A stretch of 64,000 bases of DNA from Phoronis australis (lineage: Eukaryota; Animalia; Phoronida): contig NMRA01000011.1 of the NCBI GenBank assembly GCA_002633005.1, positions 439,395-503,394 on the forward strand, given 5' to 3'. A program made the translations under genes and the position numbers. Below the pieces are notes generated by a model. It worked only from the letters and a program-made list of their open reading frames with translations, was not told the DNA's origin and searched no databases. Each line of letters starts with the position of its first letter. The stretch's first letter is position 1. This document shows, piece by piece, positions 789-45,032 of the stretch.

Positions 789-883
789 AGGAGCATTTTC
801 TATTGTCCGACGATGCGTCCAAAAAGACAGTGGTTTAGAGTTTGCAGCTAAAATTATTAACACACGGAAACTGTCTGCTCGAG
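789..883 (+). CDS. CaMKII: CaMKII exon 2 (95 nt): Gly-rich loop to AAK lysine
   Basis: tttttcag|A GGA GCA TTT...CGA G|gtaagg; translates (K)[31 protein letters not shown]; size and phases match vertebrate CAMK2 exon 2. Confidence 0.96.
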
Positions 884-27289: not shown

Positions 27290-27349
27290 ATCACCAGAAA
27301 CTAGAACGAGAAGCAAGAATTTGTAAATTACTAACACATCCCAATATTG
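27290..27349 (+). CDS. CaMKII: CaMKII exon 3 (60 nt)
   Basis: cttttacag|AT CAC CAG...ATT G|gtacgt; (D)HQKLEREARICKLLTHPNI(V). Confidence 0.96.
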
Positions 27350-32093: not shown

Positions 32094-32148
32094 TGCAACT
32101 ACACGACACGGTACAAGACGAGGGATTTCACTATTTAGTTTTTGACTT
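32094..32148 (+). CDS. CaMKII: CaMKII exon 4 (55 nt)
   Basis: ttttttttccag|TG CAA CTA...GAC TT|gtaagt; (V)QLHDTVQDEGFHYLVFD(L). Confidence 0.96.
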
Positions 32149-32783: not shown

Positions 32784-32906
<123 letters not shown>

Positions 32907-34307
32907 TAAGTAGCCTACAGTGCAAGAAAAATAACGATTTATGTGAACATTAATGCAGGATATATTTCACTGTACATTGCCCGCTGTCCATTTTGACTGG
33001 TCACACAGTTCAGTCGTTCCTTCTCCATTTTGGCTGGTCACACAATTCTGTTGTCCATGGTTCATTTTTGCTGGTCACACAATTCAGTTATCCTCAATTA
33101 TTTCTCAGCTTTACAAAGCTTCCTACAGAACTTGTCATTACCTAAGTTTTACAACAGTTGTGCTGTCTCAGTCACACTGGCGCCCCCTGGTGTTGGGACT
33201 AAGCTATTTGAATCACCTGAATTGTTTCAAAGACATTCACGAAAGTTTCTTTTCAGTTCAGCTGTCTTTCCACAAGTAATTATTAGCCAATGTGTGATCT
33301 TGTAAGGTCTTTTAGCAAGCCTGAGAACTCTGCTGTCAAAATTGAAGATGCAACATTCCTTGAAAGACTGGAAGTCTTGAGGGTTGACAGCTGACCTGTC
33401 GGGCTAAAAAGCCTTAGAAGGAAATCAGAGGCTCAGTTTTGTAGCTTATAGAAAGAAGAAACAGAATTTGGATGTTTTGTGCAGGAAAAATGTTTTCGAA
33501 AATATGGTGATCTTTATGAAAAATCACGATTTTATAGAAAAATAAAAAATGATTACGAAATGTGCACATAGCTTTTATGCAAATAATGAAATTCTGTGAC
33601 CATCAAGGATTTTGAAGATGTATAGTTTTTTGGGTGTACTAGTACGTAAAAAGTTATTTAAGAAATTTGATCGTTGGTAGGCAATGGTAACCTATTACAT
33701 TAATGGATTGGGCACTTAGTTAAAAAGTAATTTGATTACTTCACCAGGGTTGGCAATTATCTTAACCTACTGCAGGTGTAACCTGCACTGACGTAATAGC
33801 TCATTTATGGTCTGCCTCTTCCAGAGTCTGTTGTCAAGTCTTCTGACTTTTGGCTAAAACTCGGTCTACGGGTGGCTTAGTCTGTTTGTTGAAAACAGAC
33901 ATAGGCTGAAAGTCCGGAACAAACTGTCTTTCACTTGAAGTCAAGAGACAGAAAATCAGTCTGCTCGATTAAACCAAATGTTTTAAAATGCAAAAGACAA
34001 AAAAACCAACTTTTGCTGGCTATTCGTAGTCACATTTTTTACTTGTGGCTCAAGCTAAAGGATAAAATCCAATAGCAACTTGGAGAAACAGGTCCCGGGA
34101 CTCACTCTGACATGCAGTGACCACATAAAATCTGCCAAAAAATTTTAAAACTATGGCCTTATTGACCTCACAACACACATTGACGTCTGAAGTTCCACTT
34201 TTGCCATCATGCGATCACGCATCATAAATATTTACAATAATATAAGAATTGTAACAGAGACAAAGGTTACGCGATCAAAATAAGGTGATTAAATGCTGTG
34301 TTAATGA

Positions 34308-34368
34308 CATCACACCGGGGCCACACAGGTCATAAGGAGGGAACGCACGGTTAACAGCAGTGTGGTTG
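34308..34368 (+). promoter_or_regulatory. Putative splicing 'docking' element upstream of exon 6a
   Basis: complementary to 36411-36425 (14/15 pairs) and to 36174-36243 in several blocks; overlaps putative branch site ggttaac (34349-34355). Confidence 0.45.
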
Positions 34369-34387
34369 TTGACATTTTGCCTTTCAG

Positions 34388-34460
34388 TCATTGCATACAG
34401 CAGATCCTGGAAGGTGTTAATAAGTGTCACTTACACAACATCATACACCGTGACCTCAAG
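34388..34460 (+). CDS. CaMKII: CaMKII exon 6a (73 nt), mutually exclusive alternative A, catalytic HRD
   Basis: ttttgcctttcag|T CAT TGC...CTC AAG|gttggt; (S)[24 protein letters not shown]; not in the ORF track. Confidence 0.92.
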
Positions 34461-36318
34461 GTTGGTCCGCTCACATTACACCATCAGTGCTGCATTCGTA
34501 GATGTATCGCGCACCCGCCTGCTGGCGCCACTTGACTAGAGCTGACACATTGTAGACTTAGCGCTTTTAGTAGGCCTTGTTCATTCAATTTACAGTCCAA
34601 TCTGGGCATCCGTCATTTTGGGATCAATGCTTTTCAAACATCTTACATTCGATCACCAACCCATGTGACTAATATATGCATGGTTAATGTTTTATATCAA
34701 CTGCTACCTTGCGCTGTCAGCTGTGCTTCAACTTTGAGGTTGCCTGGTGCAATTTGAGAAAATTGATACCGGTGAAACATATTTATTGTGGATTAACCCT
34801 GGCTTCTGGGTTTGAATACAATCTTTTTTAAGTCACTTGATTGGTTTGTGGACCTATCTGTTACAGTCACTTGACAAATCTGGCAATGGTCTAAATTGTG
34901 GAAAATATCCGTCTGCTATCATGATGTTATCATGTACTACTACATTGTTTAATATTAAGCTTGTGAAATGGATTTCCTGGCAAAACATATTTGAAATAAA
35001 ATTGAAATGTTTAGACGATTGCGTCAAATTTTGAGACTGGATAGTGGCTGACGTTCTGGCAATCATCTATCACATCTCCGTTTCATTCAAAACACATCTT
35101 AAATATTTGAGTTTGTACACTTTAAACTAGTGCGTGATTACCATGTGCGCTCGTGATTGGTTAATATATCTTGGTGGTGCTGGAACATAAATCTTGGCAA
35201 TGCTTGTTCTTAAAATAAAGTGTGGGTAAACTTGAAACTTGAGGTTCACTCTTCCAATCTTGCAAATGAGATCGCTTGCTTAATCTTGACATAGCTTGAA
35301 CAAACTCTGAATTCCATGTTTATTCCAATATTCCAAGCTCACACAAGACCCAAACAAATCAGGCAACCCCAGAACATAACCAATTTAATCTAACACATCC
35401 AATACTGTACGTAAACATTTTTCACAGTAGACCGCGCTTTGACAATAAGTGCGGTCAAACACTTGGGCTTTCTCGCTTGGGTGACAATTAAGGCTAACTT
35501 CACTGAATGTCAGAGCTCTGAAAACATAACTGTTTACATCATCGAAATGTTCAGTTGTACATGTGGAATTCAAGATAAGCATGATATGATTGGTTGAAAA
35601 GTGTATTTCATAGAGACGAGCTATGTTCCAAATATCAGCCAATCAAATAGCGGACCAGAGGATTAGGTTTTTGAAAAAATTAAAAATGTTACCTATTGAT
35701 CGTTCAAATACAGTGTGCAGTGAAGTCAGTGGTCTTCGATGCATACGCTTGCATGGTTTTACGCTCACGAAAAATATTGCTTTAAATTTCCGTTACAAAA
35801 AACTAGTGTTATGTTTGGAGGAAATCCATTGCACAAGCTGGAATATTGCATCAAACGAGATTGGCCACTACAGTCGATAAGGCACGCTGCGCAACTTTTT
35901 TGGAACAGCTGTCAGGAAAAGGTTTTTGTCAACCAAATTGATGATCAAGCCTGAAGGACAGATTCGTTTAAATGAGCTGTCAGGTACAGAAACACAACTA
36001 GTTGTCAGTAAATGTTCAGTCAAGCTCTAAACTAAGTAGGAAAGATGTCCAGAAAGTTCAAAATGCGTGCTTAGTCAGATGTCTGAAATGTTTCACACTG
36101 CGTTGCAAGATGCTTTTTATTGGTTTTTATTTGTTGAATGGATTGTCAGTTGTTCAATCTCCTCGTTGTTGTTCAACCACGCATCAGTGGGAGGACTGCC
36201 GGACGTTGACTCCTGCTGCCAGTCAACCGTGACTCCTCCCCTTGCTGTATTTTTGGAAGGAGTGACGGGTGTTGACTCCTCCTACTGTTCATTGGCCACG
36301 CCTCTTTGATTGTTTCAG

Positions 36319-36391
36319 TAACTGCATGCAGCAGATATTAGAATCTGTGAAGTACTGTCACCAGAACCATATCTGTCATCGTGACCTTAAG
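36319..36391 (+). CDS. CaMKII: CaMKII exon 6b (73 nt), mutually exclusive alternative B, catalytic HRD
   Basis: tgtttcag|T AAC TGC...CTT AAG|gtgagt; (S)NCMQQILESVKYCHQNHICHRDLK. Confidence 0.92.
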
Positions 36392-38122
36392 GTGAGTCTC
36401 TCTACCAACACTGTGTGGCACTGGTACATGCTTGATGGCCTCGCGATGTTGGGTGCCTTTAGTGAGTGCTCTTTTACGAACAATACTGCGAAACACTAGT
36501 CGTCCTATTTCAGACTTCCCAAAATTTGTAATTCTTTTAAACTGTTTATTTGAAGCCGCATTTTGCTCTGTTTTGCTAGCTAACTAGGTATTTTACTCTC
36601 ACAAAGCCGGCCTCATGTTCCTGGCCACCATAGGATTCTCTTTCCCTTAATAACAAGAGAATCGAAACCCTTTGCATCTCAGGAAAACATTTCAGAGTTT
36701 ATTGGGGTTAGCCAACCCTTAAATTACAAATTTGAAAATGATGCATGTATGCATTGCTTGTGACTTGATTGGCTGGCTCATAAGGTAACATGTCAAGATG
36801 GAATGAGCATGGTGTTCTGCTTAAACACCGAAGCGCTTCGGTTAGGAATTCAACATTGACAGCTGAAAAGCGGCAAATGCACTTTTATGTGGCTGTAAGT
36901 TTGGAACATGAAGCATCTTGTGGCTGGCATACGACCAAAAATATTTTTTAGCTAACATGGTTCATTTTCAACTATATAATCTTAGGCGTCTTTGTTCAAT
37001 TTTGCAAATTCGAAGGTTTCATATAGTGATAATATTTGAAAGCATTCGTTCGAATGAAATTTAATTAATTGCTACTAATTTTGTGTCTACTTTGAACCTG
37101 TGAGCTGTCAATGGTGTTTTTGTTTTGATATCAACATTTACTTTCAAATTGGTTTAAAATGCAGGCATGATGCAGTACTTCTTCATCGTTCAGCACATGT
37201 ATTGTGGCAGACAAGTGATTGTTATCTTGTCATGGTAGACAAGTTAATGTTGTCAAATTTCTTAAAAAAATGAACATTAAACAACAACATCGATGACGTT
37301 TCTGTTATTTGCATCAAGGTCAGGTCAGCTTCAATTTAAAACAATAGAAAAATGACAGTTTTGGCAATTATTTGTTGTGTCCAATAAGTGAAGTTTCCAT
37401 ATGCACCATCCAGCTTTACTTGTGTGCGAGTGCTGTGTTAAACTAATTAAGTGAAGTGATGCCCATTTGTTTTAAGCAACACCCATCTCTGCTACAGTCA
37501 TTTATCGCCTGAGTGTTCAATTACACTTCAAATCATGCATTTATACATTGATTAGTCCTTCTAATTACCAAAGCAGACAAGAGGAGAAGAGCCAATATGC
37601 TAACTAGTCCATTGCTTTCTGCCTATTTTAGTTCTTAAAGGTATTCTATCAGGTAACATTTTGCTGATTGTAAGACATTCCCAACGTCTGCCAGGCCAAA
37701 ATGTTACATGTTCTCACTGCTCTAAGTGCTGACGCCTGTTGGTCACTTTGGTAATGATCAATTCATTAGTTGTTGCTCATCTGCAAAGAATGGTTCGCTT
37801 GTGAATTATAAGTACGAGTATAAGACTACTTGTCATTGCAGTAAATTCTCTGTTGAATTCAAACTTCTGTCAATTTTTGTAAGAAGTGACTGGATCTCAA
37901 AATCCCATGGTTGATGTTTTTTCCCCAAACTTATTTCAAGTATCTGTTGTTCACATTTTTATTAGTGGCAGCCTCCAAAATGGCATGCTTAGGAAATAAG
38001 AGTTGCTTTTTATTTCCATTTCTCACAGGCTTGATTTGGTTGTTGCTATAGAGCCATTTCATGAGTAATCAATTCACCTTCTCCCTCAGATCTTTAATAA
38101 TCGTGTTTTGCTTATCTTCTAG

Positions 38123-38225
38123 CCGGAAAATTTATTGTTAGCTAGCAAATTGAAAAACGCAGCGGTAAAGTTGGCTGATTTTGGTCTAGCTATTGAAGTT
38201 CAAGGAAACCAGACAGCATGGTTCG
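38123..38225 (+). CDS. CaMKII: CaMKII exon 7 (103 nt), DFG motif
   Basis: cttatcttctag|CCG GAA AAT...TTC G|gtacgt; [34 protein letters not shown](G). Confidence 0.97.
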
Positions 38226-40973: not shown

Positions 40974-41186
<213 letters not shown>

Positions 41187-41986: not shown

Positions 41987-42081
41987 GTGTCATCCTTTAC
42001 ATTCTCTTAGTGGGTTATCCTCCCTTCTGGGATGAGGATCAGCACAAGTTGTATGCACAGATCAAGGCTGGTGCTTTTGAC
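41987..42081 (+). CDS. CaMKII: CaMKII exon 9 (95 nt)
   Basis: tttatttcag|GT GTC ATC...TTT GAC|gtgagt; (G)[31 protein letters not shown]. Confidence 0.97.
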
Positions 42082-43275: not shown

Positions 43276-43398
43276 TATCCTTCGCCGGAATGGGACACCG
43301 TGACAGCTGAAGCCAAAAGTCTTATCAACAGCATGCTGTGTGTAAGCCCATCCAAGAGAATCTGTGCATCGGACGCGCTCAAGCACCCGTGGATATGC
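43276..43398 (+). CDS. CaMKII: CaMKII exon 10 (123 nt)
   Basis: gtttcag|TAT CCT TCG...ATA TGC|gtaaga; [41 protein letters not shown]. Confidence 0.96.
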
Positions 43399-43743: not shown

Positions 43744-43827
43744 CAACGTGAGCGAGTGGCATCTGTCGTGCACAGACAAGAGACCGTGGAATGTCTCAAG
43801 AAGTTCAACGCCAGGCGTAAACTGAAG
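43744..43827 (+). CDS. CaMKII: CaMKII exon 11 (84 nt), autoinhibitory segment with Thr286/287-equivalent
   Basis: tttctatttgcag|CAA CGT...CTG AAG|gtcagt; [28 protein letters not shown]. Confidence 0.97.
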
Positions 43828-44989: not shown

Positions 44990-45032
44990 GGAGCCATCTT
45001 GACAACCATGTTGGCCACTAGAAACTTCTCAA
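44990..45032 (+). CDS. CaMKII: CaMKII exon 12 (43 nt), CaM-binding segment with Thr305/306-equivalent
   Basis: ccatttcag|GGA GCC ATC...TCA A|gtaagt; GAILTTMLATRNFS, ends in phase 1. Confidence 0.96.

What the first reader, a model, noticed from the sequence alone, without database searches (positions are those of the whole stretch)
34388..36391. Duplicated catalytic-loop exon 6 (6a/6b): mutually exclusive kinase-domain isoforms in an invertebrate CaMKII
Seen: two intact 73-nt, phase 2-to-0 exons 1858 nt apart, both with GT-AG and both ending in HRDLK, differing at 9 of 24 residues ([19 protein letters not shown] vs NCMQQILESVKYCHQNHIC). Joining 6a to 6b puts TAA (the first 3 nt of 6b) in frame at once; skipping both reaches TAG early in exon 7. 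Only one-of-two splicing gives a kinase. Established (from memory): vertebrate CAMK2D has a mutually exclusive exon 6 pair of the forms ..VNHCHL.. and ..VLHCHQ... Inference: the same VNxCHL versus VxxCHQ split here suggests either that the pair predates vertebrates or that it arose convergently.
Basis: partly seen in the sequence, partly recalled or inferred. Interest (0 to 1): 0.85.

Follow-up and report, generated by a model that had tools for sequence, protein, structure and literature searches.

The report
Ancient swappable kinase exons in CaMKII
An invertebrate CaMKII gene carries two intact copies of the exon for its catalytic loop; only the second was seen spliced here, but snails, octopus, a ringed worm, a moss animal and roundworms have the same two types, so the pair likely dates to the ancestor of these animals, while its link to the known vertebrate pair remains unresolved.

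Summary
Observation confirmed: two 73-nt AG/GT exons, 1858 nt apart, 9 of 24 residues different; using both or neither gives an early stop. RNA reads join exon 5 to 6b (30 reads) and 6b to 7 (38); no spliced read touches 6a. The host is probably a spiralian. The same two exon types occur in gene models of gastropods, octopus, an annelid, a bryozoan and nematodes, with the Gly-type copy upstream in 6 of 7 species whose models show both, so the pair is probably as old as protostomes and 6a a minor isoform rather than a dead copy. The human CAMK2D pair is published and dated to chordates; trees of 24 columns neither support nor reject a common origin. The scan noted a vertebrate version before (shark CaMKII-beta). 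A new member of a known kind, present in public gene models, not found in eight paper searches.

The parts
789..883 (+). CaMKII exon 2 (95 nt)
   Evidence: tblastn of mollusc CaMKII; AG/GT borders asserted
27290..27349 (+). CaMKII exon 3 (60 nt)
32094..32148 (+). CaMKII exon 4 (55 nt)
   Evidence: its 3' end is the loose end of reads entering exon 5 (table 7)
32840..32905 (+). CaMKII exon 5 (66 nt), common upstream exon
   Evidence: joint to 6b in 5, 3 and 22 reads of runs X1-X3
34370..34429 (+). Predicted RNA stem pairing the 6a acceptor (34370-34387) with the middle of exon 6a (34407-34416, 34422-34429); a lead only
   Evidence: MFE and centroid agree, z -2.35, 3 of 200 shuffles; most paired acceptor of 12 exons, but z only -1.7 and -1.2 in two other fold windows; found post hoc
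34388..34460 (+). Exon 6a, upstream Gly-type copy ([24 protein letters not shown]); donor AAG|GTTGGT
   Evidence: 20 of 24 residues identical to the Gly-type exon of Owenia and Octopus; no spliced read
36319..36391 (+). Exon 6b, downstream Ser/Tyr-type copy (NCMQQILESVKYCHQNHICHRDLK); donor AAG|GTGAGT; the copy spliced in the runs read
   Evidence: joints 5-6b and 6b-7; 20 of 24 to Schistosoma, 19 of 24 to Biomphalaria
38123..38225 (+). CaMKII exon 7 (103 nt, DFG motif), common downstream exon
   Evidence: joint from 6b in 8, 11 and 19 reads
41065..41148 (+). CaMKII exon 8 (84 nt)
   Evidence: loose ends behind exon 7 match it
41987..42081 (+). CaMKII exon 9 (95 nt)
43276..43398 (+). CaMKII exon 10 (123 nt)
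43744..43827 (+). CaMKII exon 11 (84 nt, regulatory segment)
44990..45032 (+). CaMKII exon 12 (43 nt, end of regulatory segment)

Best explanation
This CaMKII gene holds two intact tandem copies of exon 6, of which the downstream copy (6b) is the one spliced in the RNA runs read, and the upstream copy (6a) is likely a minor, mutually exclusive alternative inherited from a duplication that probably predates the split of spiralians and nematodes. Shown: each copy alone keeps the frame; both or neither give an early stop; 5-6b-7 is spliced. Inferred: exclusivity is enforced by 6b winning by default (consensus donor, open acceptor) over 6a (weaker donor, acceptor predicted to be hidden in a stem with its own exon), with nonsense-mediated decay removing double and null products; 6a is switched on in some tissue or stage not in these runs. 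Inferred: both isoforms are active kinases, because HRDLK is kept in both, and the nine substitutions before the catalytic loop tune rather than abolish activity.
For: Anatomy and frame. Splicing of 6b: 30 reads for 5-6b and 38 for 6b-7; no joint listed for 6a-6b or 5-7 (joints under 3 reads are not listed). Two types as separate one-exon isoform models of one gene: Biomphalaria 3 Gly-type of 15 isoforms seen, Physella 2 of 12 and Octopus 1 of 6 in the clusters read, Watersipora 2 of 4 with the exon, also Steinernema hermaphroditum, Haemonchus, Necator. Models that fuse both copies give the order: Gly-type upstream in Nucella, Owenia, three Steinernema species and Nippostrongylus (6 of 7 species); the seventh, Dictyocaulus, has Ser at column 9 in an upstream copy that shares W4 and M23 with the Haemonchus Gly-type. 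Matched pairing (6a-upstream type, 6b-downstream type) outscores crossed pairing in 7 of 7 protostome pairs; in the exon tree 6a sits in a group of 11 of the 12 upstream-type exons (92/79, unstarred) and 6b next to Schistosoma (94/74). 6a keeps 20 of 24 residues against annelid and octopus. Donors and acceptor folds. NMD reliance of non-3n exclusive exons: 14 of 19 clusters in C. elegans (PMC4165533, passages).
Against: No spliced read on 6a: 4, 4 and 0 reads laid in X1-X3, none only partly on the stretch; X4 laid nothing; with 25 distinct read starts at the 5-6b joint the 95% upper bound for 6a is about 11%; only 18-19% of each run was read and tissues are unknown. By plain identity 6a picks the upstream-type exon in only 4 of 7 protostome pairs (1 tie, 2 misses; Octopus matched beats crossed by 1 point). 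The AU test does not reject 6a+6b as sisters (11.3 log units worse, p 0.134). 9 of 14 shared codons are identical between 6a and 6b against 6.3 expected at saturation (P 0.10), a faint hint of a younger copy or conversion. Relatives' isoforms are gene models; I did not see their reads. Insects examined show one type only (Lepidoptera 14 of 14 listed members with the exon), and the one unc-43 entry I saw in the C. elegans catalogue (1 of 2 mentions) concerns exon 14. The stem is a single-species, post hoc prediction.
Confidence: 0.75

Rival explanations
1. [quoted passage not shown]
For: Same exon, length and phase. The chordate pair is dated to Chordata and this pair reaches nematodes plus spiralians, so one origin is the more parsimonious count. 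Matched order outscores crossed for the Anolis pair, 155 to 143. Upstream+6v1 versus downstream+6v2 is not rejected (p 0.64).
Against: Both window exons are closer to 6v1 than to 6v2, so the reciprocal rule of PMC8373072 fails. 6v1-type exons resemble the protostome downstream type (mean identity 0.72) more than the upstream type (0.62). The crossed grouping (p 0.73) and separate origins (p 0.45) are not rejected either. Both vertebrate copies have His at column 12, where all 10 downstream-type exons have Tyr. No lancelet, echinoderm, hemichordate or cnidarian CaMKII was identified among my hits.
Confidence: 0.45
2. The protostome pair and the chordate pair arose by two separate duplications of the same small exon (convergence).
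For: Diagnostic columns do not map between the pairs; 6v1+6v2 as one clade is not rejected (3.1 log units worse, p 0.45). PMC8373072 reports ACOX1 as evolving three times (passage), and its table leaves CAMK2D at Chordata after a bilaterian search of 85 chordate events. The major copy is upstream in mouse heart and muscle but downstream here.
Against: Needs two gains close in time on the two bilaterian stems; the free search missed two better trees that each split 6v1 from 6v2.
Confidence: 0.45
3. 6a is an old exon that this species no longer uses (recently silenced pseudo-exon); the gene makes only the 6b kinase.
For: 0 spliced reads on 6a; non-consensus donor; acceptor predicted to be paired.
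Against: Open frame, intact AG/GT, HRDLK kept, 20 of 24 residues as in annelid and octopus. The minor mouse exon 6B is absent from ventricle and soleus and about 10% in olfactory bulb, a level these read counts do not exclude.
Confidence: 0.15
4. The duplication is recent and specific to this lineage; likeness to relatives' two types is convergent.
For: 6a+6b as sisters is not formally rejected (p 0.134); slight excess of identical codons (P 0.10).
Against: 6a shares G9 and the N/S-I-I run with upstream copies, 6b shares M3, S9 and Y12 with downstream copies, in the same order as in 6 species; similarity between the copies ends at the splice sites.
Confidence: 0.07

Closest known systems
Mammalian CAMK2D exons 6A/6B (6v1/6v2): PMC12060085 (passages), bioRxiv 10.1101/721589 (passages), event 41 of PMC8373072 (passages and supplement rows), PMC9741552 (passages and supplement row)
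   Same: Same exon of the same gene family, 73 nt, 24 residues ending in HRDLK, two tandem copies, one per transcript, one copy dominant in the samples examined.
   Different: Different diagnostic residues; dominant copy is upstream in mouse, downstream here; the published age is Chordata; exclusivity was shown by long reads in mouse, here only one copy was seen spliced; common origin undecided.
Public gene models of protostome CaMKII (e.g. Biomphalaria XP_055875999.1 versus XP_055875985.1; Octopus XP_052823862.1 versus XP_052823863.1; Watersipora XP_067928672.1 versus XP_067928671.1; Haemonchus XGW28423.1 versus XGW28422.1)
   Same: Two exon-6 types in isoforms of one gene, matching 6a and 6b type for type.
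   Different: Annotated automatically, without comment; I found no paper discussing them.
Tandem exon duplication-derived substitutions / homologous mutually exclusive exons in general (PMC8373072; PMC5740500, passages; PMC4165533, passages)
   Same: Homologous same-length exons inside a folded domain, non-multiple of three, frame shift on double inclusion or skipping.
   Different: No steric block (1858-nt intervening intron, no branch-point-like match in its first 70 nt); both introns are GT-AG with no U12-type donor; a self-pairing acceptor stem is predicted but untested.

Membership tests
CaMKII gene | Kinase domain plus CaMKII regulatory segment | tested here: met
   Exons 2-12 match mollusc CaMKII at 82-95% where the alignment stays in the exon; best solved-structure hits of both exon peptides are CaMKII
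CaMKII gene | C-terminal hub domain | tested here: inconclusive
Homologous mutually exclusive exons | Two homologous tandem exons of equal length and phase with canonical splice sites | tested here: met
Homologous mutually exclusive exons | Junction reads for each copy to both flanking exons | tested here: inconclusive
   Met for 6b (30 and 38 reads); 0 spliced reads for 6a in 3 shallowly read runs
Homologous mutually exclusive exons | No productive double inclusion or double skipping | tested here: met
   Both give stops; no such joints listed (threshold 3 reads)
Protostome CaMKII exon-6 pair (this report) | Upstream Gly-type and downstream Ser/Tyr-type copy in fixed order | tested here: met
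   Order as in 6 of 7 species with fused models; matched beats crossed in 7 of 7 pairs; tree support modest
Orthologue of the CAMK2D 6v1/6v2 event | Same splice sites | tested here: met
   73-nt exon with the same first and last codons
Orthologue of the CAMK2D 6v1/6v2 event | Each copy most similar to a different vertebrate copy (rule of PMC8373072) | tested here: not met
   6a 19 and 6b 17 of 24 to 6v1; 16 and 15 to 6v2
Orthologue of the CAMK2D 6v1/6v2 event | Exon tree joins upstream with upstream and downstream with downstream | tested here: inconclusive
   AU p 0.64 (matched), 0.73 (crossed), 0.45 (separate origins), 37 rows, 24 columns
Orthologue of the CAMK2D 6v1/6v2 event | Bridging pairs in lancelets, echinoderms, hemichordates | not testable with these tools
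   No such named protein among the hits; animal genomes are not searchable here
RNA-structure-regulated exclusive splicing (docker/selector or acceptor masking) | Conserved, covarying pairing across species | not testable with these tools
   Only one genome's introns at hand; single-sequence predictions

The most novel reading that the evidence does not exclude
The catalytic-loop exon switch of CaMKII arose once, before protostomes and deuterostomes split: the published chordate date for the CAMK2D 6v1/6v2 event is too young, vertebrate CaMKII-alpha/beta and -gamma each kept one half of a switch that snails, worms and nematodes still carry whole, and the upstream copy is kept off by a stem in which the codons for its diagnostic Glu-Gly pair with its own splice acceptor.
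Probability: 0.35. Interest if true: 0.62.

Novelty: new member of a known kind. Interest (0 to 1): 0.45.

Why it matters
CaMKII isoform diversity is usually placed in the linker; the kinase-domain exon pair is published only for vertebrate CAMK2D, and its physiological meaning is stated to be open (PMC12060085). A pair at the same exon in molluscs, an annelid, a bryozoan and nematodes means either that the switch is of bilaterian age or that the same small exon was duplicated and kept twice. Either way, animals used in memory research (Aplysia has a Gly-type record) could be used to ask what the two kinase cores do. Limits: the kind of event is well known, the isoforms are already in public gene models, and nothing here shows a functional difference.

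Tried and rejected
No RNA holder was listed by the run search; three raw-read runs and one contig set came by species label. The contig set X4 showed only the start of exon 5 and repeats and was not used as evidence. No whole genome is held, so paralogues and hub exons could not be checked. The homologue search with 6a and its intron flank had 6 candidates and 1 hit, an unnamed ORF with a Gly-type exon. The protein atlas gave no answer. The search of representatives returned mostly vertebrate-like and insect-like CaMKIIs; 10 of them or of earlier hits were looked up by name, with no lancelet, echinoderm, hemichordate or cnidarian among the names. Third exon-6 copy: none. Steric block by a branch point near the 6a donor: first matches at +72 and +82, rejected as unlikely. 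Long-range duplex between the intron upstream of 6a (34318-34347) and the 6b donor region: -29.8 kcal/mol, matched by 2 of 150 background pairs but picked from 28 segment pairs; not accepted. Tyr in the exon-5 motif as a deuterostome sign: shared with vertebrates but also a spider, outweighed by the tree. Snail-type 15-nt microexon between exons 2 and 3: best of 67 candidates unconvincing. No structure prediction or complex job was run: both isoforms would fold as CaMKII and the tool gives no per-residue contacts. Paper searches listed nothing on the invertebrate pair; most subscription journals are not covered, bioRxiv supplements are closed, and figures (e.g. the alignment in PMC12060085) were not seen.

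Full report
What is there. The window lies inside one CaMKII gene on the + strand. Exons 2-5 and 7-12 were mapped with mollusc CaMKII proteins, their AG/GT borders checked; no hub exon was found. Between exon 5 (32840-32905) and exon 7 (38123-38225) lie two 73-nt exons, 6a (34388-34460) and 6b (36319-36391), 1858 nt apart, 50 of 73 nt identical, differing at 9 of 24 residues. Either alone keeps the frame; both give a stop at the first codon of 6b; neither gives a stop six codons into exon 7. Of 89 open AG-73nt-GT stretches in the window these two score 140 and 136, the next 4, and there is no third copy. Likeness between the copies ends at the splice sites.

Expression. Three raw RNA runs with the same species label were read to 18-19% each. 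Joints listed: exon 5 to 6b in 5, 3 and 22 reads, 6b to exon 7 in 8, 11 and 19 reads; none for 5-6a, 6a-7, 6a-6b or 5-7 (joints under 3 reads are not listed). Laid on 6a and its flanks alone, 4, 4 and 0 reads fit and none only partly, so they are unspliced. With 25 distinct starts at the 5-6b joint the 95% upper bound on the share of 6a is about 11%. So 6b is the default in these samples; use of 6a is not shown. For scale, the minor mouse exon 6B is absent from ventricle and soleus and about 10% in olfactory bulb (PMC12060085, passages).

Host. A tree of the kinase and regulatory region without exon 6 (35 rows, 290 columns) puts the window among spiralians (82/89, drawn open), next to the flatworm Paragonimus (88/90, unstarred); the bootstrap had not settled. 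6b is closest to a Schistosoma exon (20 of 24) and has Met at column 3 like mollusc, annelid, brachiopod and bryozoan exons. A spiralian, possibly a flatworm, is the best reading; it is not firm.

Relatives. Searches with exon 10 (120 of 1979 hits listed) and with the matching region of a Biomphalaria isoform (71 hits), and three cluster look-ups, show two exon-6 types in protostome CaMKII. One has Gly at column 9, usually with N/S-I-I or N/D-V/L-L/V before HRD; the other has Ser at 9 and Tyr at 12. They occur as separate isoform models of one gene in Biomphalaria (3 Gly-type of 15), Physella (2 of 12 in the cluster read), Octopus (1 of 6), Watersipora (2 of 4 with the exon), Steinernema hermaphroditum, Haemonchus and Necator. 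Models that wrongly fuse both copies give the order: Gly-type first in Nucella, Owenia, three Steinernema species and Nippostrongylus; Dictyocaulus has two copies too, its first with Ser at 9. This is the order of 6a and 6b. 6a keeps 20 of 24 residues against Owenia and Octopus. Matched pairing outscores crossed pairing in 7 of 7 protostome pairs, once by a single point; by plain identity 6b picks the downstream type in 7 of 7 but 6a picks the upstream type in only 4 of 7 (1 tie, 2 misses). In the 24-column exon tree 6a lies in a group of 11 of 12 upstream-type exons (92/79) and 6b beside Schistosoma (94/74); forcing 6a and 6b together costs 11.3 log units but is not rejected (p 0.134). Type labels were given by me from the sequences before the tree, so clustering is partly by construction; the order in fused models is the independent check. 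Insects showed one type per species in what I saw (Lepidoptera 14 of 14 listed members with the exon; several isoforms each of Rhodnius, Ceratina and Frankliniella); absence of a second exon in their genomes was not tested. All of these are gene models, whose reads I did not see.

The vertebrate pair. Mutually exclusive exons 6A/6B of Camk2d are published (PMC12060085; bioRxiv 10.1101/721589, passages). The human event is catalogued and dated to Chordata (PMC8373072 supplement rows; PMC9741552 supplement row); the authors searched 85 chordate events in other bilaterians and CAMK2D is not among those they extended. Both window exons are nearer 6v1 than 6v2. Matched order scores 155 against 143 crossed for the Anolis pair, but AU tests reject neither matched origin (p 0.64), crossed origin (0.73) nor separate origins (0.45). 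Column 12 is His in both vertebrate copies and Tyr in all downstream-type copies, a priapulid and a sponge, which would fit a separate chordate duplication, but it is one column. The bridging groups (lancelets, echinoderms, hemichordates) were not among my named hits. I put one origin and two origins at about even odds.

How it likely works. Shown: frame logic and default use of 6b. From sequence: 6b has a consensus donor (AAG|GTGAGT), 6a a weaker one (AAG|GTTGGT); the intron between them is long and has no branch-point-like match in its first 70 nt, so steric exclusion is unlikely. Predicted: the 6a acceptor pairs with the middle of its own exon in an 18-pair stem (z -2.35, 3 of 200 shuffles) and is the most paired of 12 acceptors (0.95 and 0.83), though z falls to -1.7 and -1.2 in other fold windows; the stem includes the codons for the diagnostic Glu-Gly. 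This is a post hoc lead from one species. Inferred from known cases: decay of frame-shifted products backs up exclusivity (14 of 19 non-3n clusters in C. elegans, PMC4165533; 60% of human clusters are non-3n, PMC5740500). The exon encodes the end of helix E and the catalytic loop (recalled, not computed); PMC9741552 notes that the CAMK2D region has residues next to the ATP site. With HRDLK intact in both copies, tuning rather than switching off is the likely effect; no data on the difference were found.

Novelty. The kind of event and the vertebrate case are known, and the protostome isoforms are in public gene models. Eight searches of the open library listed no paper on an invertebrate CaMKII exon-6 pair; subscription journals are largely missing. 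The one unc-43 entry I saw in the C. elegans catalogue (1 of 2 mentions) is about exon 14; PMC2265522 mentions unc-43 cassette events without naming the exon (passages). The scan's own notes held no look-alike of this stretch. Verdict: real, old, a new member of a known kind; the added point is that a CaMKII catalytic-loop exon pair reaches across protostomes, beyond its published chordate range. Interest 0.45.

Noticed in passing
protein P0004 (unnamed Logan contig): One open frame holds two tandem, slightly different copies of CaMKII exon 10, a candidate second duplicated exon in another animal. The window has one exon 10.
   Followed up: partly
proteins P0034 and P0218 (Biomphalaria, Physella): Some snail isoforms carry a five-residue insert between exons 2 and 3 of the kinase N-lobe, likely a 15-nt microexon; no convincing counterpart among 67 candidates in the window's 26-kb intron 2.
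   Followed up: partly
protein P0301 (Anabarilius CaMKII-beta): A fish beta gene model with both a gamma-like and an alpha/beta-like exon 6 in tandem.
   Followed up: partly
window 36373-36391: 6b has Cys just before HRD (HICHRDLK) where all other CaMKII exons compared have V, I or L.
   Followed up: no
window 34958-34978 and 35819-35839: 21-nt inverted repeat, 95% complementary, 840 nt apart, inside the intron between 6a and 6b; possibly the ends of a small mobile element, and pairing would shorten the intron.
   Followed up: no
window 32977-33088: Three copies of a 37-nt tandem repeat just downstream of exon 5.
   Followed up: no
window 33318-33468 and 36684-36863: Reads and contigs from elsewhere in the genome lie partly on these intron stretches, with joints between opposite strands; dispersed repeats.
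   Followed up: no
proteins P0130, P0181, P0183, P0246 (strongylid nematodes): Their upstream exon-6 copy has Trp at column 4 and Met after HRD (HRDMK); heterobranch snails also have HRDMK or HRDVK in the Gly-type copy only, so the minor copy changes the residue between the catalytic Asp and Lys.
   Followed up: no
window 32855, 32873, 32876, 38164: Exonic letter differences between runs (X2 in exon 5, X3 in exon 7), most simply alleles.
   Followed up: no
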